DNA from: Escherichia phage EPIMRB01
Reading direction: 5' to 3' (one strand)
DNA: 64,000 nucleotides
Sequence record: PQ657784
The position numbers and the translations under genes are program-made. This document shows, one piece after another, positions 16,315-26,660 of this stretch (its first letter is position 1; each line of letters begins with the position of its first letter). The notes beneath the pieces were generated by a model. That model searched no databases and had not been told where the DNA came from. It was given only the letters and a program-made list of their open reading frames with translations.

Positions 16315-16344
16315 ATTATAACACAACACGAGGGACTTGTAAAC
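16315..16344 (-). promoter_or_regulatory. T4 early-type promoter
   Basis: Minus strand GTTTACA, 17-nt spacer, TATAAT. Confidence 0.6.
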
Positions 16345-18401
16345 TACATCTTGAACTTTTTAGACATTCCGTTGATGTTAACCAAAGAAGCCAAGATTTG
16401 AGAAACTTCGTTTTCCTCTTCTTTTGATTCTTCTACAAGGAATTGATTAAACCCAGCCATTGGACGAACTTCACCAGTTTCCATTAGATGATCGCCATCA
16501 TATACCGATTCTTCTAATTGTTCAGAAGGAGGAACGATTGTGCCTTCGATTAGATACTTGTTATAAGCAGTTTCTTTCATCATGTACGTGCTTACTTTAT
16601 TAATCTTCAACAAAATTCCACGCGGTAGAATAACTTCAGCTTCTGATGGAAATCCTGATAAATGACCTGGAACGATAACTTTGATTCGCTCAGCCCCTTT
16701 AATTACCATACCTACACTAGTTTCAGCATCTTCATTAGCATATGCAGAATGACTACCCATATGCATTAAATCTTCGGCATCAACGGAACCTTCTCCTTCA
16801 CCAGAAAATACTGCACCGGAATCATCTAGAGCCATATAGTTTTTACCATGCTCACCGAAGATATTTGGTTTAAGCGATGTTGATACGAAGTTCTTGAAAT
16901 AGAACATTTTATTTTCAATATTATGGCGTAAAGTTTTAAAAGTAACTTCTTGACCACGATAAAGCGTAGTTCCCGGAGGAAGAACTGATCCTTTGGCGAA
17001 TGCAGAATCCATTGTCTCGATGTGTTTAATAGCTCGTTCCATGTATTCTTCACGGGTAGAATCTGGTTTACCTAAAAGGAACGAGTTCATTTCAACATAT
17101 GAATCTGCACAATAATCTTCAATTACATCAGACTCAGCCTGAGTCAGTCCTTTTGGAGTTACTTCGGTGCTTGCGTATTCATATGCCTGAGCAGCAGATT
17201 CATTAATCAATTTATAAATGCCATTCATGACAAATTGAATAATAGCTACCTTTTCGTCTGGCGTGGCTTTAGAACCTTTAACTAAATCATTGATAATTTT
17301 CTTAATAACATCAAAGCTATTAGAAATATTAATGTCAGCGAGATCGCTCAAAATTTTATCTGTTTTATAATCAAAGAATTCTTTATTCTTTAAATATTCT
17401 TGAGAACCTTGATGTGTTATATCGCTCTGCAGTCTGATAGACGGATCACGTAAACGCGCATGGGCCAATGCAATATGATTTCGGAAGCTTTCTAGTTCAT
17501 AATCGTTAGATTTAAAACGAGAAGCACTTCTCATACCACCGATAGCTCCTTTGCCGAAGTTTGAACCAATCTGAATAACGCCAGAGTTCATTGGTCCTTC
17601 TGCTTTATATACCGGAACTTTAGATTCAAACTCTTGATATTTCTTAGCAGCGAAGCTATCGCCCTGGAGTGAAGCATCGACAGTAGAATATTGAGCTTGT
17701 GCTGCTAATCGACGACTAATTTTAGTTTTCTGAATAACAGCTTGATCCGTGCGCTTATCATTTTCTAAAGCAATAGAAGCAGCAACAGCAACAGCTTTAG
17801 GAACAGCATTACCTGTTTTGACATCTACATAAACATCACCAACCTTTGATTCAACTTTTGTGAATAACTCAGTTGAAATAGGAGGTACACCTGGAATGTC
17901 TTCTAAATTGGCATTTTTACGGTAAACCATAATATATGCATACTTTTTATCGTAATCCCAGATTTCCTTTAAAAGAACATATCGACCTGCTCCTTTAGTA
18001 CGTACTAAACGGTCAGCAATAACTTGCATTTGACGAGCAGCGCCATTTGTTTTACTTTTTAGTACGCGGAATAAGCATGCATCAATTTTATACTGTTTCA
18101 TTGTTTGAAGAGCAGTATCAAAAACAGCATTAATGACACCAATTGGATTTCCACCCAAGTTTTTAAGTTTAACTAATGATAGTTTCTCATTAACACCTAT
18201 CATTACGATATGCATCATTTTATCGCCTGGCTTAACGTTTTTATTTGTATCACCGCCAGAGGTGTATGTACAAAATCTAAATCCAGGAAGCACGCTTTCT
18301 TCACCAGCTTGAATAGCAAAAATTTGAGGTATTTTATGCTTAGGATTTAAGTTAACAACCGGCGCCGAAGCGCCGTCAAATAATTCTGTAATAAGTTCCA
18401 T
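16344..18401 (-). CDS. Alt-family ADP-ribosyltransferase paralog
   Basis: 685 aa; N-terminus MELITELFDG..PQIF..GFRFCTYTSGGDTN shared with Alt; C-terminal R-S-E triad motifs LYRGQ, NFVSTS, SEAEVILPRG; SD AAGGA; 3 nt after alt stop. Confidence 0.85.
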   Translation of the reverse strand: MELITELFDGASAPVVNLNPKHKIPQIFAIQAGEESVLPGFRFCTYTSGGDTNKNVKPGDKMMHIVMIGVNEKLSLVKLKNLGGNPIGVINAVFDTALQTMKQYKIDACLFRVLKSKTNGAARQMQVIADRLVRTKGAGRYVLLKEIWDYDKKYAYIMVYRKNANLEDIPGVPPISTELFTKVESKVGDVYVDVKTGNAVPKAVAVAASIALENDKRTDQAVIQKTKISRRLAAQAQYSTVDASLQGDSFAAKKYQEFESKVPVYKAEGPMNSGVIQIGSNFGKGAIGGMRSASRFKSNDYELESFRNHIALAHARLRDPSIRLQSDITHQGSQEYLKNKEFFDYKTDKILSDLADINISNSFDVIKKIINDLVKGSKATPDEKVAIIQFVMNGIYKLINESAAQAYEYASTEVTPKGLTQAESDVIEDYCADSYVEMNSFLLGKPDSTREEYMERAIKHIETMDSAFAKGSVLPPGTTLYRGQEVTFKTLRHNIENKMFYFKNFVSTSLKPNIFGEHGKNYMALDDSGAVFSGEGEGSVDAEDLMHMGSHSAYANEDAETSVGMVIKGAERIKVIVPGHLSGFPSEAEVILPRGILLKINKVSTYMMKETAYNKYLIEGTIVPPSEQLEESVYDGDHLMETGEVRPMAGFNQFLVEESKEEENEVSQILASLVNINGMSKKFKM

Positions 18402-18404
18402 GAT

Positions 18405-20498
18405 TTATCCTTGAACGAACTTGTAAGGCATGTTTGTAATATCTATGCAAGACGCAATAATTCCAAGAGATGATTCTACTTTCTGTTTAACATTTGATGA
18501 AACAAATGATGCAAAATCAACTCTGTCTTCTATTTCAATATCACCTGTCATTGCAACTACTTCACCAGTTTCCATTAGACGGTCACCGTCATAAATTACT
18601 GATTCGGTGAGTTCTTCCGTAGTCATAACTTCAGCTTGAATGAGTTTTGTATTATTAGATGTTGTTCCGTCATTATTAGAAGCATCAGTTATTTTATTAA
18701 CTTTGACCATCAATCCGCGTGGTAGAATAACTTCAGCTTCTGTTGCTATTCCGAGACTTCCTGGATATACAACATTAACTTTATGAGCTCCATCAATTGC
18801 CCATCCTATTTGAACTTTAACGTATTCAGGATTTTCTTTATACGCTCTTATTTCATTTGGATTAATAGTTATTCCTTCTTCATTTTTATCAACTGTCAAT
18901 TCATTACGAGCTTCTGGTTCTAAAAGACCAATACCAGCATGTGTAATTCCAAAACGTCCAAAAATGATAGGAGTTAAAGAAGTAGATACAAAATTTCTGA
19001 AATAGAACACTTTATTTTTAACTAGTGCTTCGTATATAGGAGCAGTCATACTTTGAGCACGATAAACTGTAATGCCTTCTGGTATACGGTCACCATTTTC
19101 AAAAGCTGAATCTAAGTTATTTATAGCAGATTCAATTTCTTTTTCACTCATTACATCATATCGTTCTGGATTGTAGCGTCCTAAAAGAAGATTATTGATG
19201 TCAGTATATCCTGAACCGCAATACTCTCTAATGCCGCGCTTTTGTGATGGAGTATATTTAGAACCATCACGGGCAATAGTAATATCAATCATTGGACCTG
19301 CACCAATTCCAGAAAAGCTATAAATCATTCGTTTGAGGAATTTAGTTTTTGCTGCGTTCCAGGAATTTTTAGTTATTTCTTCCCAGACTTCATCTGGCTG
19401 TCCTTTACGGGTTTTATTATGTTTATCAAGCCAATTATCTTTATATTCTTCAAAGAGTTGATTAACAGCTGCTGCGTATTTTTCTAAACATTTTATTGAA
19501 GTAGTTGGTTCATTTTTAATCGCATTAAGAATTACATCTTTAATTTTTTCAGAAACTTCACCAACCTCACTCATTGGAAAGAATTTATAGTCATAATGAA
19601 GTTCATCTGCAGTTCCTTCAGCAATAATTTTTGCTGCCTTAGTTTTAGAAGCTAATGAATTAATTCCAAGCTTCATTTCTTCTGCTTCGGGAATTAAAGG
19701 AGCTGTAGCAGGTTTATTGAAATTAGCTGCGGTAGATTCATACTTTTGGAATAATTCACTTTCAAATCTAGAAGATTCCAATGACTGACTTTGTGCAATT
19801 GCTCTACGGGAAATTTTAACTTTAACGATTACAGCTTGGTCAGAACGTTTATCGTTTTCTTGTGCAATAGATGCGGCAATTGCCTCATTTTTAGTTACTT
19901 GAGCTCCGGTATCTTTATTGATATAAACATCACCGACCTTCGATTCAACTTTAGTAAAGAGCTCGGTACTAATTTCAGGAACTCCTGGAATGTCTTCTAA
20001 TGATACATTTTTGCGATGTATAAGAATATATGCATACTTTTTATCGTAATCCCAGAGTTCCTTAAGAAGGACGTATCTGCCACCTGAACGACTACGGATA
20101 AGTCTATCAGCAATAAGTTGAATTTGACGAGCTTGACCAGCAGTTTTAGACTTAAGAATACGGAGCATACAGGCATCAATTTTATACTGACGCATCGTCT
20201 GCATCGCAACAGTAAAAACTGAATTGATGTAATTAATTGGGCTTGGACCGAGACCTTTTAATTTAGCAATTGAACCTTTGGCAGTTAATGTAAAAGGAAC
20301 AATATGCATCATTTTATCGCCCATCTTTAAATCGCGATTAGTATCACCTCCAGATGTATAGGTACATAAACGAAAGCCTGGTTGTTCAATTGCGTCATCA
20401 ACATGAACTGAAAAAATTTGCGGTATTTTCTTCTTTGGATTTAAGTTTGTAATCGGAAGAGTAGTATCTTCGTCAAATAATTCTGTAATGAGTTCCAT
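18405..20498 (-). CDS. alt: Alt ADP-ribosyltransferase (capsid-packaged, injected)
   Basis: 697 aa from second ATG (MELITELFDEDTTLPITNL...), colinear with T4 Alt; ART motifs YRAQ, NFVSTS, EAEVILPRG. Confidence 0.9.
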   Translation of the reverse strand: MELITELFDEDTTLPITNLNPKKKIPQIFSVHVDDAIEQPGFRLCTYTSGGDTNRDLKMGDKMMHIVPFTLTAKGSIAKLKGLGPSPINYINSVFTVAMQTMRQYKIDACMLRILKSKTAGQARQIQLIADRLIRSRSGGRYVLLKELWDYDKKYAYILIHRKNVSLEDIPGVPEISTELFTKVESKVGDVYINKDTGAQVTKNEAIAASIAQENDKRSDQAVIVKVKISRRAIAQSQSLESSRFESELFQKYESTAANFNKPATAPLIPEAEEMKLGINSLASKTKAAKIIAEGTADELHYDYKFFPMSEVGEVSEKIKDVILNAIKNEPTTSIKCLEKYAAAVNQLFEEYKDNWLDKHNKTRKGQPDEVWEEITKNSWNAAKTKFLKRMIYSFSGIGAGPMIDITIARDGSKYTPSQKRGIREYCGSGYTDINNLLLGRYNPERYDVMSEKEIESAINNLDSAFENGDRIPEGITVYRAQSMTAPIYEALVKNKVFYFRNFVSTSLTPIIFGRFGITHAGIGLLEPEARNELTVDKNEEGITINPNEIRAYKENPEYVKVQIGWAIDGAHKVNVVYPGSLGIATEAEVILPRGLMVKVNKITDASNNDGTTSNNTKLIQAEVMTTEELTESVIYDGDRLMETGEVVAMTGDIEIEDRVDFASFVSSNVKQKVESSLGIIASCIDITNMPYKFVQG

Positions 20499-20521
20499 CA
20501 TATCCTCTCTAGTGTTTATTC

Positions 20522-20529
20522 TATTTATA
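20522..20529 (-). promoter_or_regulatory. Late promoter TATAAATA for alt
   Basis: Minus-strand TATAAATA about 24 nt upstream of alt ATG; consistent with alt being a late, packaged protein. Confidence 0.6.
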
Positions 20530-20534
20530 AAATT

Positions 20535-20552
20535 AAAGGCCCGAAGGCCTTT
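20535..20552 (-). terminator. Stem-loop upstream of alt
   Basis: AAAGGCC-CGAA-GGCCTTT overlapping the stop of the 62-aa ORF. Confidence 0.45.
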
Positions 20553-20739
20553 AATAATCTATTGGTAAGAGAGTACGGTATATTTCAAACTTTGGACCTT
20601 TTTCATAGGCATCAAATGTTTCTGTGAATTTATTATAAGCATATGCATCTATAAATTCAATCATAATTTGTGATACAGAAGTAGAAACATCTCCACCTTC
20701 TTTTTGAGCAACGACAATTGTTTCTAAGTAAGCTTTCAT
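20551..20739 (-). CDS. Hypothetical protein
   Basis: 62-aa ORF, start overlaps gene 30 stop. Confidence 0.5.
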   Translation of the reverse strand: MKAYLETIVVAQKEGGDVSTSVSQIMIEFIDAYAYNKFTETFDAYEKGPKFEIYRTLLPIDY

Positions 20740-22196
20740 AGACCAGTTACCTCATGAAAATCACCAAATACATCCTCAAATGTATTAGCTTTAGTTTTAT
20801 CTTCACGTAAACGAATCGCAATCGGAAGAAATAATTTAACGTAATCAGTGCGGCCGTCAGATTTTAACCAACCATTGCATTCACATTCTAGAATTTTTCC
20901 AATATAATAATTTTGGTTTTCCATAATGCGAGTACGGTCAAGTTCATGCGATTTTACACCGGCTTTATCTTTTAAGCCTGAACCAGCATTTACTTTAATT
21001 TTTCCACACTCTGATTCAAGAATAAATCCACCTGCTTTAGTAGGGTCTTTACGGTGAGGATAAATTCCTACAATTTTTAAATCAACATCAATTACTTCTT
21101 TAAATTTATAAAGATTTTTTGAACGAGCATTTTCCCACAATCCATCGGTATTTTTGAGAATAATACCTTCAAGACCTTGGTCAATATACTTTTTATAAAT
21201 TACCTTAGCTTCATCTAGGTTATTTACTACTTGGTTTTCAATTAAAATTACTTTATCATATCCTGATGTCATTTGTTCTAGTTTAGAAAAACGTACATCA
21301 TATTTTAAACGAAACGCCGGAAGACCGTATATTTCTACCAACGGAACATAATCCCAGACCTGAAACTTCATGCATTTGGCTTCTTTTTCTGAAATAGTTC
21401 CCTTTAAAGATTTATTGGCAATTCCATTAGAAGCAGTACGTGATTCAGCTACTTCGGAAAACTCTTTAGCTTTACTGATTTCAGGAGCATCAAAAAGAAA
21501 ATCTAGGCCTTCTGGCTCTTTTTCAACTTGCTCATGGTATACCAATTCACCATCAATTAACACACCTTCTGGATGAATCTGGCGGGCTTCGGCAGTCATT
21601 TTGATTAACTCTTCTTTAAGAAGATCTAATCCTAGATATTCATTACCAGCTCGTGATAAAAGACGAACATCATCTAATTCATCGCCTCGGACTTCAGCAA
21701 AACACCGAGCTCCATCTGCTTTTAACTGTGCAAAAGCTGGAAATTTGATATTCTTACTAATGCCTTTTTCATCATAAGAACTTGCCAACATTTGAGGTTG
21801 TTCAGGAATTAAACCTGGCCAAACTTTATTTGCAATAGATACTGAAGCACCGCATTCAAGGTCTCGCATCATAACTCGACGCAAAACTTCAACATCATCC
21901 TTTTTACCATCAGTGATATATCCAGTTAATTCCTCAATTGCAGCATTTCCAGTCAATTTCCGAGTAGCTAACGTGAATTCAATGAAGTCAAGCATATCGG
22001 TAATAGTCAGCATTCCAAAACTCTGGGTAGCAATACCAGGTTTAGGCCATTTCTTGATATAATACTGTAACCCACGAGAATAAGTCAGACGATATACTCG
22101 TTTAAGCAATTCATTATCTTTATTCTTTTCAAGAATTGCTTGCTTCTGCTTAGTTGATCCAATAGATGCTATTTCATTCAGAATTTTAAGAATCAT
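20736..22196 (-). CDS. 30: ATP-dependent DNA ligase
   Basis: 486 aa; KxDG adenylation motif (AQLKADGARCF); near-colinear with T4 DNA ligase. Confidence 0.95.
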   Translation of the reverse strand: MILKILNEIASIGSTKQKQAILEKNKDNELLKRVYRLTYSRGLQYYIKKWPKPGIATQSFGMLTITDMLDFIEFTLATRKLTGNAAIEELTGYITDGKKDDVEVLRRVMMRDLECGASVSIANKVWPGLIPEQPQMLASSYDEKGISKNIKFPAFAQLKADGARCFAEVRGDELDDVRLLSRAGNEYLGLDLLKEELIKMTAEARQIHPEGVLIDGELVYHEQVEKEPEGLDFLFDAPEISKAKEFSEVAESRTASNGIANKSLKGTISEKEAKCMKFQVWDYVPLVEIYGLPAFRLKYDVRFSKLEQMTSGYDKVILIENQVVNNLDEAKVIYKKYIDQGLEGIILKNTDGLWENARSKNLYKFKEVIDVDLKIVGIYPHRKDPTKAGGFILESECGKIKVNAGSGLKDKAGVKSHELDRTRIMENQNYYIGKILECECNGWLKSDGRTDYVKLFLPIAIRLREDKTKANTFEDVFGDFHEVTGL

Positions 22197-22462
22197 TGCT
22201 CATCCTTCAAGGTTTGGTTTACAGCTCTATTATAAATCAATTCATCATTAAGCTCAGGCAAAGACTTATGATATGTAGTTCTAACTTTATTTCCTTGCAT
22301 CCAGTGCTTGACGTAAATGAAACCTTGCTCTACGCATTTTTTAAAAATTCGTTCGTCTTTTTGAGCTCGGAATTCTGGATTGCATCTAAAAAATTGATTT
22401 ACGTGACCGTAATCACGTGTAGTATTACCTTCATTTTCATAAATAGTATGAACAACAAACAT
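22193..22462 (-). CDS. Hypothetical protein (30.1 position)
   Basis: 89-aa ORF overlapping neighbours by 4 nt. Confidence 0.5.
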   Translation of the reverse strand: MFVVHTIYENEGNTTRDYGHVNQFFRCNPEFRAQKDERIFKKCVEQGFIYVKHWMQGNKVRTTYHKSLPELNDELIYNRAVNQTLKDEQ

Positions 22463-23301
22463 TAGAATGCTCCTTGAAAAATATTATCACCACTAGTAGG
22501 TCTATTATACAAATACTCTATGCCACCAGGTTTAATATAGTTCCATGTCTGAAATGGATGTGTCTGATATGGATGGTATAGATGATTATAAGGATTAAAT
22601 CCAGGCGTTCTCCAGGTAGTGTTCCAAGGAAAAGAATCGTTTTTAATCATCTTTTCAATTAAATCTTTTATAGCTTTTTCACTATCAAAACTTTCTTTAT
22701 TTTCCTTCGGCGAAAAAAGCTTATTTTCTACATCATTCCATGTATAAACTCGCTGAGCAGTTTTTGGAATATTGTCACGCTCTCCTCGAGCCATCCAATA
22801 AACCGGAACATTTAATATTTCACTCGCGTGGTCGCAGTGGTGAGCGAGATCGTCAATATAACAAATTACGTTATATTTCTCTTTTGCCTTTTTGAATAAC
22901 TCTTCTTTTGAAGAATCATGACCACACATCATTACTTCTGAGAAGGCACCAGGAAAAAGAGCATTCAAATTAAATTGACGATTCAGCAGAGCGTCAATAG
23001 AATCACCCAATGCTGTAACAGCTACAAAATTATAATCTTCTTTTAGTTTGTTAATTACGCACAATGCATCTTTATATGGAGACAAGTAACGAATAAAATC
23101 TGAACGATTGTATTTTTCAATTAGCTTGACACCGAGTTCTTCATCACAATTAAAGAGTTTACCCGGAGAAATAAATTTCTCATCTTGGATCATTTTTAAA
23201 ATATGTTCTAACGGAAGATTATATTTCTGAGCAAAATAAGGAAGACCTGATTGCCAGCTTAAACATACTCCATCAATATCAGTCAAAATAGTAGGCTTCA
23301 T
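22462..23301 (-). CDS. HAD-superfamily phosphatase-like protein (possible 5'(3')-deoxyribonucleotidase type)
   Basis: 279 aa; HAD motif I ILTDIDGV at N-terminus, motif II VAVT, motif IV YIDDLAHH. Confidence 0.6.
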   Translation of the reverse strand: MKPTILTDIDGVCLSWQSGLPYFAQKYNLPLEHILKMIQDEKFISPGKLFNCDEELGVKLIEKYNRSDFIRYLSPYKDALCVINKLKEDYNFVAVTALGDSIDALLNRQFNLNALFPGAFSEVMMCGHDSSKEELFKKAKEKYNVICYIDDLAHHCDHASEILNVPVYWMARGERDNIPKTAQRVYTWNDVENKLFSPKENKESFDSEKAIKDLIEKMIKNDSFPWNTTWRTPGFNPYNHLYHPYQTHPFQTWNYIKPGGIEYLYNRPTSGDNIFQGAF

Positions 23302-23762
23302 AGAGAGTCTCTTAGTAGGTTTAACACATCAATAAATTCAGCTTCGGTTAGTATTGTATCATCTTTTGTTAGACCACTAGCCATGCTGTGCTTCAAAACT
23401 TTTCCTTTCGAGGCTTGTAATGCATCGCGAAAGCCCCTGTTTTGGATCGCTGCTTCAAAATATGCATTTGTGTATAATTCTTTCCACGCCGGGGAGTATC
23501 TTGAAAACGGAACTCCAAGCCAGAAGAGGGTCCCACGGTCCTGAGCTCTAGCATAAGACCTTCCAGCTTGTTGGGCGGCAAGCCCGGATAACCCAAATAT
23601 ACGACGTTGCTGTTCAATATTTTTCACCTTACACCCTTGGAGGAATCCTTCGAGACCTCCAAATTGGATACCATCCATAACAAAAGGCCATTGGGCGAAA
23701 TTACTTAATGCGCATGATGGCCATCTAAAATTGCTTCTTATCTCTAGCTCAGACATTTTCAA
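23298..23762 (-). CDS. NADAR / YbiA-like (DUF1768-type) protein, putative
   Basis: 154 aa; LSNFAQWPFVMDG...EGFLQGCK resembles the YbiA/NADAR signature SNFAAWP..VDG...EHYFQAQK; recalled from memory, not searched. Confidence 0.55.
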   Translation of the reverse strand: MKMSELEIRSNFRWPSCALSNFAQWPFVMDGIQFGGLEGFLQGCKVKNIEQQRRIFGLSGLAAQQAGRSYARAQDRGTLFWLGVPFSRYSPAWKELYTNAYFEAAIQNRGFRDALQASKGKVLKHSMASGLTKDDTILTEAEFIDVLNLLRDSL

Positions 23763-23955
23763 TACTTATAATTTCAACATCAGCCCAATGACCATAGCAA
23801 GGAAGACGAAATTCAACTGGCCAGTTAGGGTCCTTTTCTAATATAATAGACTGAACTTGTGGCTCTTCATATTCATCGGTATACGGACCTTTATACGTTA
23901 CTTTATATGTGACCTTAATGTACTTAATTCCAAAAATCTTATTAATTATATTCAT
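23749..23955 (-). CDS. Hypothetical protein
   Basis: 68-aa ORF in tightly overlapping array. Confidence 0.45.
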   Translation of the reverse strand: MNIINKIFGIKYIKVTYKVTYKGPYTDEYEEPQVQSIILEKDPNWPVEFRLPCYGHWADVEIISIENV

Positions 23956-24149
23956 ACTAATTCCTTTAATCCGTAAATAGGAGATAATTCATCGCCCATA
24001 CGAAGGTCTTCATTTCCATCTACCCAGGAAACAATATAAGCCTCTTTTATTTGAATACCACTCCATTTAAATGGAGGTAGAACCTTAGAAATTAATCCAG
24101 GTATACCAACTCCCTTTAATTCAACAGTTTGACCTAAAAAGAATTTCAT
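23952..24149 (-). CDS. Hypothetical protein
   Basis: 65-aa ORF, 4-nt overlaps on both sides. Confidence 0.45.
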   Translation of the reverse strand: MKFFLGQTVELKGVGIPGLISKVLPPFKWSGIQIKEAYIVSWVDGNEDLRMGDELSPIYGLKELV

Positions 24150-24436
24150 TAGAACCTCATCTGAAAACCGTGCGATTTAACATTACCGCCGCCAATATCA
24201 GAAATGTTAATTTCACGCGCAATTGAAGGGTCAATGTCAATTTCACGATTGAGTTTAGTGATAGCTAAAGTATCGCGGCCATTTACAGTACGGAACTCTA
24301 AAGGACATACTACATTAACGTAGTTTTTAATCGATTCACTAGTAGGTTGCAAATGAGCAGGAAGGTCTTTAGGCGCCTTAGAGAAAACTACTTCGCAGAA
24401 ATTTTTACGGGTATCAAAATAAGTAGTCATAAACAT
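24149..24436 (-). CDS. Hypothetical protein
   Basis: 95-aa ORF with SD GAGGAAAA. Confidence 0.5.
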   Translation of the reverse strand: MFMTTYFDTRKNFCEVVFSKAPKDLPAHLQPTSESIKNYVNVVCPLEFRTVNGRDTLAITKLNREIDIDPSIAREINISDIGGGNVKSHGFQMRF

Positions 24437-24477
24437 AGTATTTTCCTCAGTAAGGGGCCGAAGCCCCTCATTTTATT

Positions 24478-24843
24478 TTAAATATCAAATTCGTTAAGAA
24501 CTACATCAAAGATTGCTTCAAGATGCTCAGGTTTAGCTCTGTTACTCAGAATATGACGAATCCAAGTTTTAACCAGAAGCTTGCGATTAACGCCATTCCA
24601 GCAAGGATGAGTCCCTAAATCGCGTTGACGAAAATCATCATCCAAAGCGATTTTGAAGTTGGAACCTTCCATTGTGATTGAAACCGTGATGCCATTTTCA
24701 AATCGCATATAAACGTAGTTAGGAGTCATATACTGTTCAATTTCGCATACTGATCCATTTTGATGTTTCCAAAGGCAAATAGTATCAATAGAACCTGCAA
24801 TACCATTAGAAACATATTTACGTTCAAAGTTGATGTAGTTCAT
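24478..24843 (-). CDS. Hypothetical protein
   Basis: 121-aa ORF. Confidence 0.5.
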   Translation of the reverse strand: MNYINFERKYVSNGIAGSIDTICLWKHQNGSVCEIEQYMTPNYVYMRFENGITVSITMEGSNFKIALDDDFRQRDLGTHPCWNGVNRKLLVKTWIRHILSNRAKPEHLEAIFDVVLNEFDI

Positions 24844-24911
24844 TTTTATTCTCCGAGATGTTTAATTGCGGTACAGGTATATAATATCATATCCTGTACC
24901 AAAGTAAACAA

Positions 24912-25244
24912 TTATTTTACTACTTTCCAGTGCTGCATGTCAAGTTTACCAACTTTTTTCATCTTCTCAATTAAGCGTTCGGCGCGTTGGCGAGCTGTAA
25001 CATAATACCATTCACCTAATTCATTTTGTTCAATTTTTCCAACGATTACTGTATTCAATTCATAAATCCAACCAGTAAAGAAATTATGAACTTGAATTGT
25101 AAAGGTGAAATCTGTTCCCATACCTTCTGTTGTTTCTACTTCAATAATATCACCTTCAACTGCCATTAAGAACCACATAGTTTCATCATATTTACCGTTG
25201 AAGCATTTAGTTTTAACTGCAGCGTTCAGATTAATTGTTTTCAT
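24912..25244 (-). CDS. Hypothetical protein
   Basis: 110-aa ORF downstream of an early promoter / stem-loop cassette. Confidence 0.5.
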   Translation of the reverse strand: MKTINLNAAVKTKCFNGKYDETMWFLMAVEGDIIEVETTEGMGTDFTFTIQVHNFFTGWIYELNTVIVGKIEQNELGEWYYVTARQRAERLIEKMKKVGKLDMQHWKVVK

Positions 25245-25271
25245 TTTATTCTCCTTTGTTTGTGTAAGATA

Positions 25272-25301
25272 ATACTATCACAAAGGAACTATACTGTAAA
25301 C
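25272..25301 (-). promoter_or_regulatory. Early-type promoter
   Basis: Minus strand TTTACA, 17-nt spacer, TAGTAT. Confidence 0.5.
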
Positions 25302-25331
25302 AACTTTGTGCAATCTTTGGAAAATAAAAAA

Positions 25332-25349
25332 GGACTCCCGAAGGAGTCC
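25332..25349 (-). terminator. Rho-independent terminator
   Basis: GGACTCC-TTCG-GGAGTCC followed by T7 run on minus strand. Confidence 0.65.
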
Positions 25350-25354
25350 TCAAC

Positions 25355-25573
25355 TTATGCTTTCTGCTTACCAAAACGAGAAGCATCATCTCGAAGAACC
25401 GCACGTGCTCGGCGCATGATCTTCTCAACAGTTTGATTGATACGAGAGTTCGACCCACGCTTGTAACCAGCGCGTTTAGAATCACCAACTTTCTTTTCAA
25501 CTGCTTTCTTTGCTTTAGCTTGTTTTGCCATTATAAATTCTCTTTTAAATGAAAATGCAGGACTTATTGGCAT
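25355..25573 (-). CDS. Small highly basic protein of unknown function
   Basis: 72-codon ORF (58 aa if started at internal MAKQAKAKK); Lys/Arg-rich; start not resolved. Confidence 0.45.
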   Translation of the reverse strand: MPISPAFSFKREFIMAKQAKAKKAVEKKVGDSKRAGYKRGSNSRINQTVEKIMRRARAVLRDDASRFGKQKA

Positions 25574-25928
25574 TGCCTGCGCAAGCCCTCAAGGGGAACA
25601 TAGGTTTTTGAATATTTAACGACCAGGATAATCATAAACCCGTCATCATACCTTATAGCTCTTATCTGTTGCACACCGTTAGCTTAAAGGTTCCGGGTTC
25701 GATTTCTCGAGGATAAGATATATACTGATGGATATATAGGCCTTGAGGCGTACTCCCGATTAGCCATCACCTCGGGGTAGCATGCACTTGCCGCTATAAA
25801 ATAACATTCAAGAGGTACACCGTAAAACTGCCGGGGTCTTAAAACTATAATGATTCGCAAATCATTAATCAGACAGTTCGACGGCTCCTCGTTTTAACTT
25901 CACACTAAGGCAGTGACTCTCCAATAAA

Positions 25929-26177
25929 TTACTTCAGTGTTACCACAAAGTGACGAACTGCTTTTCGTGCAGCAGAAGCCAGTGGCTTAGCATATTTAAG
26001 TTCATCTTTTTCCTGAAGCTCAGCAGCTAATGCAGTTTGAGCAGGATTCAGATGTTTGAAATAACGCAGGATTTCAAGAGCTTCGGCTTCAACATCAATA
26101 GATGCGCCATAGTTTTCGTGACCATTATTCCATGCGTTTCGTTGCAGTTCAAGAGCGTGTTGTAATTGTTTAATCAT
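25929..26177 (-). CDS. rIII: rIII lysis-inhibition accessory protein
   Basis: 82 aa as in T4 RIII; located upstream of gene 31. Confidence 0.85.
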   Translation of the reverse strand: MIKQLQHALELQRNAWNNGHENYGASIDVEAEALEILRYFKHLNPAQTALAAELQEKDELKYAKPLASAARKAVRHFVVTLK

Positions 26178-26324
26178 TTAAAAATTCTCGTTAGAGATTA
26201 AAACTCGGTAGTCACGTTCTTCTGAATTTCATCTTCTTTCGACAGATCTCTCAGTTGTAGACTACCACATAGAATTGTTCGGTTAACTTATTATTCCGAC
26301 ACCCAATTCATATTATTATTTATA

Positions 26325-26660
26325 TCACTTATAAAGACACGGAATAGCTTTATAGTGACAGGTAACGAATTTTTGTTTAATTTCTTTTGGCTGCTTAAGA
26401 CCCAGAGCTACAAAAGGATGCGGAACGTTTCGAATTTGACCAACTGGAAGAGAAGTCAAATCACCAACTTCGCAGAAACCTTCAGGAACATCAGGACCAA
26501 CAGAGTGAACTACACACAGTTCAGGAACTTCACCTTGAACACGTTTACCGATAATAAGTCCTGATTCTGTAACTTCTTCATCACCGGCTTGTGCAGGTTC
26601 AGAAACTAAAATAACATATTCACCGACAGCACGAATTGGTAGCTGTTGTACTTCAGACAT
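26325..26660 (-). CDS. 31: Co-chaperonin gp31 (GroES analogue for capsid folding)
   Basis: 111 aa as in T4 gp31; GroES-like mobile loop region. Confidence 0.9.

What the first reader, a model, noticed from the sequence alone, without database searches (positions are those of the whole stretch)
22462..23762. NADAR/YbiA-like protein next to a HAD-type phosphatase downstream of DNA ligase
The 154-aa ORF at 23298-23762 carries LSNFAQWPFVMDG...EGFLQGCK, resembling the YbiA/NADAR (DUF1768) signature. NADAR domains have been reported to hydrolyse ADP-ribose from guanine bases, so a phage copy is a candidate counter-defence against DNA ADP-ribosylating toxins, or a nucleotide-salvage enzyme. The neighbouring 279-aa ORF (22462-23301) has HAD motifs I (DIDGV), II and IV, consistent with a nucleotidase. 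They sit next to ligase and upstream of the Alt ADP-ribosyltransferases, placing ADP-ribose writers and a putative eraser in one region.
Basis: inference. Interest (0 to 1): 0.55.

Follow-up and report, generated by a model that had tools for sequence, protein, structure and literature searches.

The report
Known phage anti-DarT enzyme plus phosphatase
The small gene is the T4-type adfN (30.3) gene, already shown by others to strip ADP-ribose off phage DNA and defeat the bacterial DarTG1 defence, and its neighbour is an uncharacterised HAD-family phosphatase that travels with the phage DNA ligase rather than with adfN.

Summary
The window is a Tequatrovirus, 100% identical here to Escherichia phage AUBRB02. 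Both ORFs lie on the minus strand.

**Gene 30.3/adfN (23298-23756, 152 aa from the ATG).** It is 149/152 identical to T4 AdfN and full length. The residues E36, K43 and H123 are present. My AlphaFold model matches only the three solved NADAR structures. T4 AdfN has been shown experimentally to remove DarT1-made ADP-ribose from guanine in DNA and to be required for growth on DarTG1 hosts.

**Linkage.** The conserved neighbour of 30.2 is the DNA ligase, not adfN. The idea that the nearby Alt enzymes and AdfN form a writer/eraser pair is not supported.

Overall this is ordinary, known biology, with a modest open question about gp30.2.

The parts
23298..23756 (-). Gene 30.3 = adfN, a 152-aa NADAR-family DNA ADP-ribosylglycohydrolase. 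Key codons: E36 at 23649-23651, K43 at 23628-23630, H123 at 23388-23390. The C-terminal helix (aa 138-151) that is missing in the inactive RB69 allele is present here.
   Evidence: 149/152 identical to T4 NP_049816. Pfam PF08010 at E=1.2e-69. AF2 pLDDT 93, with top Foldseek hits being the three NADAR structures. E36 and H123 are invariant and K43 near-invariant across the family. Codon positions read.
23757..23762 (-). They are probably not translated.
   Evidence: The mechanical ORF call starts at the TTG. The AUBRB02 and T4 annotations, and the published residue numbering, start at the ATG at 23756.
22717..23301 (-). Gene 30.2, residues 1-195: HAD-superfamily phosphatase core with a helical C1 cap (aa ~16-86). 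Motif I is D8-x-D10-G-V, motif II is T96, motif III is K132, motif IV is D150-D151. Family-specific invariant residues are W16, R108 and N111.
22462..22716 (-). Gene 30.2, residues 196-279 plus the stop codon. After one confident helix (aa 207-220) comes an aromatic/Pro/Asn-rich tail of very low model confidence, probably disordered. It carries a short conserved motif, G-IEY[LW]xxxPT. Many homologues lack this tail.
   Evidence: pLDDT below 50 for residues 227-235, 239-261 and 267-279, and helix 207-220. Alignment A1 shows that roughly 200-aa homologues lack the tail and that the motif recurs across genera.
22193..22462 (-). Gene 30.1 (DUF3045, 89 aa), lying between 30.2 and the ligase. Its start overlaps the 30.2 stop by 1 nt.
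   Evidence: Pfam PF11243 at E=6e-63. Coordinates. T4 synteny.
20736..22196 (-). Gene 30, the ATP-dependent DNA ligase. It is the conserved neighbour of gene 30.2.
   Evidence: Pfam PF01068 at E=2e-32. HAD-ligase adjacency seen.
16344..20501 (-). Two tandem Alt-like ADP-ribosyltransferase genes (16344-18401 and 18405-20501), downstream of the ligase in the direction of transcription.
   Evidence: Pfam PF03496 at E=3e-20 and E=1e-37. AUBRB02 annotation as alt_1 and alt_2.

Best explanation
The locus is the T4-type 30.3-30.2-30.1-30 early-gene array of a Tequatrovirus. The genes are tightly packed, with overlapping stop and start codons.

**Gene 30.3 (adfN).** It encodes an orphan NADAR ADP-ribosylglycohydrolase. 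When the host DarT1 toxin ADP-ribosylates guanine N2 in single-stranded phage DNA, AdfN hydrolyses the N-glycosidic bond. Its catalytic glutamate is E36, lysine K43 holds the ADP-ribose phosphate, and H123 on the last strand replaces the Glu/Asp of cellular NADARs. The reaction releases ADP-ribose and restores replicable DNA, so the phage escapes DarTG1. This mechanism is shown experimentally for the 98%-identical T4 protein and is inferred for this allele.

**Gene 30.2.** It encodes a Mg2+-dependent HAD phosphomonoesterase. D8 is the nucleophile and D10 the general acid/base, with T96, K132 and D150/D151 completing the active site. It has a helical C1 cap of the kind used by 5'(3')-(deoxy)nucleotidases, so it most likely dephosphorylates a nucleoside monophosphate. 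The fold and motifs are shown here. The substrate and physiological role are inferred and remain unknown.

**Relationship between the two genes.** They are neighbours by T-even synteny and are not a demonstrated functional pair. The evolutionarily conserved partner of gp30.2 is the DNA ligase.
For: **adfN**
- 149/152 identity to T4 gp30.3 and full length.
- PF08010 at E=1e-69.
- E36, H123 and the LSNF motif are invariant and K43 is at least 90% conserved in 44 diverse homologues.
- Family profile to YbiA 2b3w at E=0.004, aligning E36 and K43 to the YbiA SEHYFQAQK motif.
- 18 of 44 members hit Pfam NADAR, best E=1.5e-7.
- AF2 pLDDT 93 and pTM 0.88. Foldseek's top three hits are the three NADAR structures at probability 0.99-1.00, and nothing else exceeds 0.09.
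- Literature: T4 AdfN removes ADPr from DarT1-modified DNA in vitro; E36A and K43A weaken rescue; the truncated RB69 allele is defective; deletion sensitises T4 to DarTG1 (PMC11825919). Guanine-ADPr hydrolysis by the phage NADAR is shown in vitro (PMC11125620). His replaces Glu/Asp in phage NADARs (PMC11543638). Transposon insertions in 30.3 are lost on DarTG1 hosts.

**gp30.2**
- D8, D10, G11 and K132 are invariant, and T96, D150 and D151 are at least 90% conserved.
- D8, D10, W16, R108, N111 and K132 are still invariant in remote relatives of 21-41% identity.
- AF2 pLDDT is above 90 for residues 1-195, and the motifs sit at the canonical strand ends.
- 9 of 44 close members and 20 of 45 remote members hit Pfam NT5C, best E=3e-9.
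- The A3 profile hits Sdt1/SSM1 pyrimidine nucleotidase (E=6e-5) and 3bwv over its full length (E=8e-5).
Against: **adfN**
- The window protein itself gives no Pfam NADAR hit. Membership rests on structure, family-level links and the literature.
- No experiment exists on this exact allele, which differs from T4 by V47I, K107R and I125M.
- T4 AdfN does not neutralise DarT1 in uninfected cells and does not fully rescue non-T-even phages. The in-vivo mechanism therefore has an unexplained T-even-specific component.

**gp30.2**
- It gives no direct Pfam, NCBIfam or PADLOC hit.
- The mdN and cdN sequence hits are only E=0.1-0.5.
- No paper found in the held library describes gp30.2's function.
Confidence: 0.88

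Rival explanations
1. gp30.2 is a DNA-end (nick) 3'-phosphatase, or another ligase-accessory phosphatase, that prepares or cleans substrates for the neighbouring ATP-dependent DNA ligase. On this reading it is not a free-nucleotide nucleotidase.
For: - The HAD gene lies within about 1 kb of the ligase in Tequatrovirus, Hadassahvirus, Marfavirus, Schizotequatrovirus and metagenomic L007.
- It also lies there in the opposite gene order, with otherwise different neighbours, in L010-L012.
- From my own knowledge, not tested here: NT5C enzymes intrinsically accept 3'-phosphates.
Against: - The domain has a 70-residue C1 cap, typical of small-molecule HAD phosphatases. Known polynucleotide 3'-phosphatases (T4 Pnkp) are essentially capless and align only over the core: 126 residues, against 162-174 for nucleotidases.
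- T4-like genomes are broadly syntenic, so adjacency may be partly inherited.
- In Pseudomonas phage Ettore the homologue is not next to a ligase.
Confidence: 0.2
2. gp30.2 and AdfN form a two-enzyme module. The HAD phosphatase would be the unidentified T-even-specific factor that AdfN needs in vivo, or it would process the released ADP-ribose.
For: - The genes are adjacent with an ATGA stop/start overlap at 23298-23301. The same 30.3-30.2 order is kept in Acinetobacter phage Melin, where gp30.3 is 41% identical.
- The AdfN paper suggests an additional T-even protein may be needed.
Against: - The two genes are uncoupled in PWKp18, 57 kb apart, and in L005, L007, L010-L012 and R10Z.
- AdfN alone works in vitro, and plasmid-borne adfN alone rescues RB69.
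- In the text retrieved from the T4 transposon screen (a term search), 30.3/adfN is the gene described for DarTG1, and the term '30.2' occurs nowhere in the main text.
Confidence: 0.06
3. The NADAR is the eraser for the neighbouring Alt ADP-ribosyltransferases, reversing protein arginine ADP-ribosylation. Alternatively it works on soluble ADP-ribose or riboflavin-pathway metabolites, as YbiA does, rather than on DNA.
For: - It lies in the same early-gene region as two Alt-like ARTs.
- A comparative-genomics paper predating the experiments favoured soluble ADPr derivatives as targets of phage NADARs (PMC9503650).
- YbiA is the best structural match.
Against: - Direct experiments show DNA guanine-ADPr hydrolysis and a DarTG1-specific phenotype for the T4 orthologue.
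- The NADAR gene has moved away from the Alt-ligase block in PWKp18, while Alt stays next to the ligase.
- Phage NADARs carry His where the YbiA subfamily has its defining Glu.
Confidence: 0.04

Closest known systems
T4 AdfN (gp30.3, NP_049816), anti-DarT factor NADAR
   Same: 152 aa and 98% identical, in the same genomic position. E36, K43, H123 and the C-terminal helix are all present.
   Different: Three substitutions: V47I, K107R and I125M, the last matching the family consensus. This allele has not been tested experimentally.
DarG1 / DarT1-associated (BC4488-type) NADAR antitoxins, e.g. Geobacter lovleyi NADAR 8BAT and E. coli C7 NADAR
   Same: The same fold (Foldseek probability 0.99), the same Glu...Lys pair with 7-residue spacing, and the same reaction, guanine-N2 de-ADP-ribosylation.
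   Different: - It is an orphan with no DarT partner.
- It has His instead of Asp on the last strand.
- It is shorter.
- The T4 protein cannot act as an antitoxin in uninfected E. coli.
E. coli YbiA (2B3W), the NADAR/DUF1768 founder
   Same: It is the best structural match (E=2e-5, TM 0.69) and the only significant PDB sequence-profile hit.
   Different: The YbiA subfamily has Glu on the last strand. YbiA is described as an N-glycosidase for riboflavin intermediates. Sequence identity is about 17%.
NT5C-type 5'(3')-deoxyribonucleotidases (human and mouse cdN/mdN; S. epidermidis 3BWV) and the yeast Sdt1 pyrimidine nucleotidase, for gp30.2
   Same: - C1-capped HAD fold.
- DxDGV motif I followed by an aromatic residue at +8 (W16 aligned to Phe of cdN in 'DGVLADFESGL').
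- DD motif IV.
- Best TM-scores normalised to the target (0.63-0.71).
- Profile hits.
- NT5C is the most frequent Pfam hit among remote relatives.
   Different: - gp30.2 itself is below every Pfam threshold.
- It has family-specific invariant residues R108 and N111.
- It carries an extra 85-residue C-terminal region, largely predicted disordered.
- It is phage-restricted and ligase-linked.
- No activity data exist.
T4 polynucleotide kinase/3'-phosphatase (Pnkp) HAD domain
   Different: Pnkp's phosphatase domain is capless and fused to a kinase. gp30.2 has a large cap and no kinase.

Membership tests
NADAR superfamily (phage gp30.3/AdfN subfamily) | NADAR alpha+beta fold | tested here: met
   AF2 model has pLDDT 93. 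The only confident Foldseek PDB hits are YbiA 2b3w, PnNADAR 8bau and GlNADAR 8bat.
NADAR superfamily (phage gp30.3/AdfN subfamily) | Catalytic Glu and phosphate-binding Lys seven residues apart (PnNADAR E43/K50; E. coli C7 E88/K95; T4 E36/K43) | tested here: met
   E36 is invariant and K43 at least 90% conserved. They align to the YbiA SEHYFQAQK motif.
NADAR superfamily (phage gp30.3/AdfN subfamily) | Charged residue on the last beta-strand: His in the phage subfamily, Glu in YbiA, Asp in DarT1-linked NADARs | tested here: met
   H123 is invariant in 44 homologues and lies in the last strand of the model, residues 120-123.
NADAR superfamily (phage gp30.3/AdfN subfamily) | Match to the curated family HMM | tested here: met
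   PF08010 Phage_30_3 matches at 232.9 bits against a cutoff of 36. The general NADAR model PF08719 does not match this protein (no hit at E up to 1), but it matches 18 of 44 family members.
NADAR superfamily (phage gp30.3/AdfN subfamily) | Full-length C-terminal helix, whose loss in RB69 reduces activity | tested here: met
   The protein aligns end to end with T4 over 152 aa, and the model has a helix at residues 138-151. The requirement is described.
NADAR superfamily (phage gp30.3/AdfN subfamily) | Hydrolysis of guanine-linked ADP-ribose on DNA, and protection from DarTG1 | not testable with these tools
   Shown for the T4 orthologue only (PMC11825919, PMC11125620 and the HIDEN-SEQ preprint).
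HAD (haloacid dehalogenase-like) phosphatase superfamily | Rossmannoid HAD core fold | tested here: met
HAD (haloacid dehalogenase-like) phosphatase superfamily | Motifs I (DxDx[TV]), II (S/T), III (K/R) and IV (DD or equivalent) at the ends of the core strands | tested here: met
   Motif I is D8-I-D10-G-V12 after strand 4-7. Motif II is T96, ending strand 91-96. Motif III is K132, before helix 133-142. Motif IV is D150-D151, ending strand 145-150. The second Asp (D10) marks phosphoryl-transfer enzymes rather than dehalogenases; that point is from my own knowledge.
HAD (haloacid dehalogenase-like) phosphatase superfamily | Match to a curated HAD HMM | tested here: not met
   The window protein gives no Pfam hit at E up to 5 and no NCBIfam hit. 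Among close homologues, 12 of 44 reach PF00702 with a best E of 3.5e-4.
NT5C-type 5'(3')-deoxyribonucleotidases | Sequence-family membership (PF06941) | tested here: inconclusive
   There is no direct hit. 9 of 44 close and 20 of 45 remote relatives hit NT5C, best E=3e-9. The profile hits 3bwv at E=8e-5 but mdN and cdN only at E=0.1-0.5.
NT5C-type 5'(3')-deoxyribonucleotidases | Four-helix C1 cap with an aromatic base-stacking residue shortly after motif I | tested here: inconclusive
   A helical cap spans residues 16-86. Invariant W16 aligns with the Phe of cdN. The role of that Phe is recalled from the mdN/cdN literature and was not checked here, and no coordinates were available for inspection.
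NT5C-type 5'(3')-deoxyribonucleotidases | Mg2+-dependent dephosphorylation of (d)NMPs | not testable with these tools
   This needs an enzyme assay.

The most novel reading that the evidence does not exclude
gp30.2 is not a generic nucleotidase. It would be a ligase-coupled phosphatase conserved across T4-like phages: an NT5C-like enzyme that removes blocking 3'-phosphates at nicks, or clears a nucleotide by-product, so that gp30 ligase can seal phage DNA. A less likely variant is that it is the missing T-even-specific helper of AdfN. The evidence does not exclude this reading. HAD-ligase adjacency survives gene-order rearrangement in distant lineages. The substrate is unknown, and I found no paper describing the protein's function.
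Probability: 0.2. Interest if true: 0.5.

Novelty: already known. Interest (0 to 1): 0.22.

Why it matters
For adfN nothing new is at stake. The gene's fold, chemistry and anti-DarTG1 role were published between 2023 and 2025. This window simply carries an intact, presumably active allele, which predicts that the phage resists DarTG1.

The residual value lies in gp30.2. It is a widespread phage HAD phosphatase, present in more than 1400 phage records, with an intact active site and no assigned function. It stays next to the DNA ligase across distant T4-like lineages. Identifying its substrate could reveal an unrecognised step in phage DNA repair or nucleotide-pool management. Testing it alongside AdfN would also cheaply address the published puzzle of why T4 AdfN works fully only during T-even infection.

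Tried and rejected
- **Direct HMM scans.** I scanned both window proteins against Pfam, NCBIfam and PADLOC. No NADAR, HAD or NT5C hit appeared.
- **Other neighbours of NADAR homologues.** The 199-aa gene upstream of a distant NADAR homologue (L003) is not a gp30.2 relative (hhalign probability 0.2). Neither is a weak 'T5 dNMPase' gene near another NADAR homologue (L005, probability 6).
- **Small ORFs next to remote HAD homologues.** The ORFs directly upstream of the HAD homologues in L010 and L011 are not NADARs.
- **Promoter and terminator scan of 20400-26400.** Counts equal the shuffled expectation, so the scan says nothing about operon structure.
- **Literature on gp30.2.** The searches returned nothing relevant.
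- **Third homologue search with the A1 profile.** It returned only the same phage family, with no Pfam labels. The exhaustive representative search was needed to reach NT5C-labelled relatives.
- **Fusion proteins containing the gp30.2 domain** (P0261, P0322, P0216, P0253). Pfam gave no informative partner domain.
- **Alt/AdfN writer-eraser pairing.** Considered and rejected; see the rival explanations.
Full report
**What is there.** The window is a T4-type phage. Region 22100-24000 is 100% identical to Escherichia phage AUBRB02 and 97% identical to many Tequatrovirus genomes. Gene order matches T4 genes alt, alt.1, 30, 30.1, 30.2, 30.3, 30.4 and onward, all on the minus strand.

The coordinates are right, with two corrections:
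- The 154-aa length uses a TTG at 23762. The annotated start in AUBRB02 and T4 is the ATG at 23756, giving 152 aa, and the published residue numbering fits only that start.
- In the direction of transcription the pair lies upstream of the ligase, and the Alt genes lie downstream.

They are an ATP-dependent ligase (PF01068) and two tandem Alt-like ADP-ribosyltransferases (PF03496). Genes from 30.6 to alt.1 have overlapping or abutting stop and start codons. One example is the ATGA at 23298-23301 between 30.3 and 30.2.

**Gene 30.3.** The protein is 149/152 identical to T4 gp30.3, with substitutions V47I, K107R and I125M, and it is not truncated. Pfam places it in PF08010 (Phage_30_3, E=1e-69) and gives no hit to the general NADAR model PF08719.

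The NADAR relationship is nevertheless solid:
- A profile of 44 diverse homologues hits E. coli YbiA (2b3w) at E=0.004. That alignment places E36 and K43 on YbiA's SEHYFQAQK motif.
- 18 of those 44 homologues hit PF08719 directly, with a best E of 1.5e-7.
- The AlphaFold2 model (pLDDT 93, pTM 0.88) retrieves exactly the three solved NADAR structures: YbiA, Phytophthora NADAR with ADP-ribose, and Geobacter lovleyi NADAR. Their probabilities are 0.99-1.00, and every other hit is at or below 0.09.
- E36, H123 and the LSNF motif are invariant, and K43 is at least 90% conserved.
- H123 lies on the last strand of the model. That is the position where published work places Glu in YbiA-type, Asp in DarT1-linked and His in phage NADARs.

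**What the literature already shows.**
- Johannesman et al. (Nat Commun 2025, PMC11825919) renamed T4 30.3 adfN. They showed that it is necessary for T4 and sufficient for RB69 to grow on DarTG1 hosts. The purified protein removes ADP-ribose from DarT1-modified DNA. E36A and K43A weaken it, and RB69's naturally truncated allele, 15 residues short, is defective.
- A 2024 Toxins paper (PMC11125620) showed guanine-ADPr hydrolysis by the phage NADAR in vitro.
- Schuller et al. 2023 (PMC11543638) defined the catalytic residues.
- A 2025 transposon screen found 30.3 insertions lost specifically on DarTG1 hosts.

The window's allele has every feature known to matter, so it is very probably active.

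**Gene 30.2.** The protein is 97% identical to T4 gp30.2. Pfam, NCBIfam and PADLOC give nothing for it directly, and PHROG 420 is 'unknown function'.

An alignment of 44 homologues, all from T4-like phages or phage-like contigs, shows these conserved residues:
- Invariant: D8, D10, G11 and K132.
- Nearly invariant: T96, D150 and D151.

The AlphaFold2 model is very confident for residues 1-195. It places these residues where HAD motifs I-IV belong, and a helical C1 cap (residues about 16-86) is inserted right after motif I. Beyond residue 195 there is one confident helix (207-220), and the rest of the tail has very low confidence and is probably disordered.

- The only near-significant PDB hit of the close-family profile is cytosolic 5'(3')-deoxyribonucleotidase. 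There 'DGVLADFESGL' aligns to 'DGVCLSWQSGL'.
- An exhaustive profile search found 1354 representatives at E of 1e-3 or better.
- Of 45 sequences sampled from that search (gp30.2 plus 44 remote relatives), 20 hit Pfam NT5C, with a best E of 3e-9. That is twice as many as hit either generic HAD model.
- These relatives still keep D8, D10, W16, R108, N111 and K132 invariant.
- Their profile hits the yeast Sdt1 pyrimidine nucleotidase (E=6e-5), the S. epidermidis deoxyribonucleotidase-like protein 3bwv over its full length (E=8e-5) and a plant XMP phosphatase.

I conclude that gp30.2 is a catalytically competent HAD phosphatase, most likely acting on a nucleoside monophosphate. The substrate and role remain inferences, and I found no paper describing its function.

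**Are the two genes a unit?** The 30.3-30.2-ligase-Alt order is kept in Acinetobacter phage Melin, of subfamily Twarogvirinae. Elsewhere the two genes separate:
- In Klebsiella phage PWKp18 the NADAR gene lies among tRNA genes, 57 kb from the HAD-30.1-ligase-Alt block.
- Metagenomic loci carry one gene without the other nearby.

The HAD gene, by contrast, stays within about 1 kb of the ligase:
- This holds in Tequatrovirus, Hadassahvirus, Marfavirus, Schizotequatrovirus and contig L007.
- In three remote contigs the order is reversed (ligase, one or two small ORFs, HAD), among otherwise different neighbours: endonuclease VII, PhoH, UvsY and UvsW.
- The one exception examined, Pseudomonas jumbo phage Ettore, places it beside the clamp loader and DNA polymerase.

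The conserved association of gp30.2 is thus with the ligase and replication, not with AdfN. This is suggestive but not proof, because T4-like genomes are broadly syntenic.

The idea that gp30.2 is the 'additional T-even protein' invoked to explain AdfN's host-phage specificity is not excluded. It is weakened by three points: the uncoupling above, AdfN's solo activity in vitro and in trans, and the absence of any mention of 30.2 in the T4 transposon screen text.

**Writer/eraser idea.** Alt-type enzymes ADP-ribosylate protein arginines. This comes from the T4 annotation and the AUBRB02 annotation as NAD(+)-arginine ADP-ribosyltransferase. AdfN acts on guanine-ADPr and not on thymine-ADPr. Co-location reflects shared early-gene synteny, as a 2022 survey also noted, and it breaks down in PWKp18. 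I give a functional pairing about 4%.

**Verdict.** Interest is low. The only open element is the uncharacterised, ligase-linked HAD phosphatase gp30.2.

Noticed in passing
window 23393-23620 (-), inside gene 30.3: T4 annotates an out-of-frame internal ORF here, 30.3' (75 aa). In this phage its ATG start is ATA, the same base change that gives V47I in gp30.3, which leaves only a TTG one codon later. That frame is 69/75 identical to T4, against 149/152 for the 30.3 frame. This argues against 30.3' being a conserved gene.
   Followed up: partly
window 22462-22716 (-), gp30.2 residues 196-279: After a confident helix at residues 207-220 comes an aromatic/Pro/Asn-rich tail of very low model confidence. 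It carries a short motif, G-IEY[LW]xxxPT, that recurs in several genera. About half of the homologues, roughly 200 aa long, lack the tail entirely. It might be a docking peptide for a partner protein.
   Followed up: partly
window 20736-23301 and loci L007, L008, L010-L014: The gp30.2 HAD gene stays next to the ATP-dependent DNA ligase across distant T4-like lineages, including lineages where gene order is reversed and the other neighbours differ. The NADAR gene does not.
   Followed up: partly
window 16344-20501 (-): There are two tandem Alt-like ADP-ribosyltransferase genes (685 and 698 aa, both PF03496). In the T4 stretch I retrieved (record 124000-134000), one alt gene is annotated at the corresponding position; I did not look further downstream in T4.
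   Followed up: no
homologue list for gp30.3 (P0104-P0107, P0110, P0113-P0118, P0120, P0137, P0186): Many database entries for close gp30.3 relatives in T-even-like phages are fragments of 83-126 aa or fusions with unrelated small Pfam families. This suggests that natural adfN alleles are often truncated or disrupted, as in RB69, and so that DarTG1 sensitivity varies among phages.
   Followed up: no
L010 8333-8599, L012 8563-8657: The remote T4-like contigs that carry the ligase-HAD pair also encode a Tad2-like (anti-Thoeris) protein and a PTH2 domain protein nearby.
   Followed up: no
PHROG 652: The PHROG profile containing gp30.3 is 296 positions long, and gp30.3 matches only positions 126-272. 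Some members may therefore carry an extra N-terminal domain.
   Followed up: no
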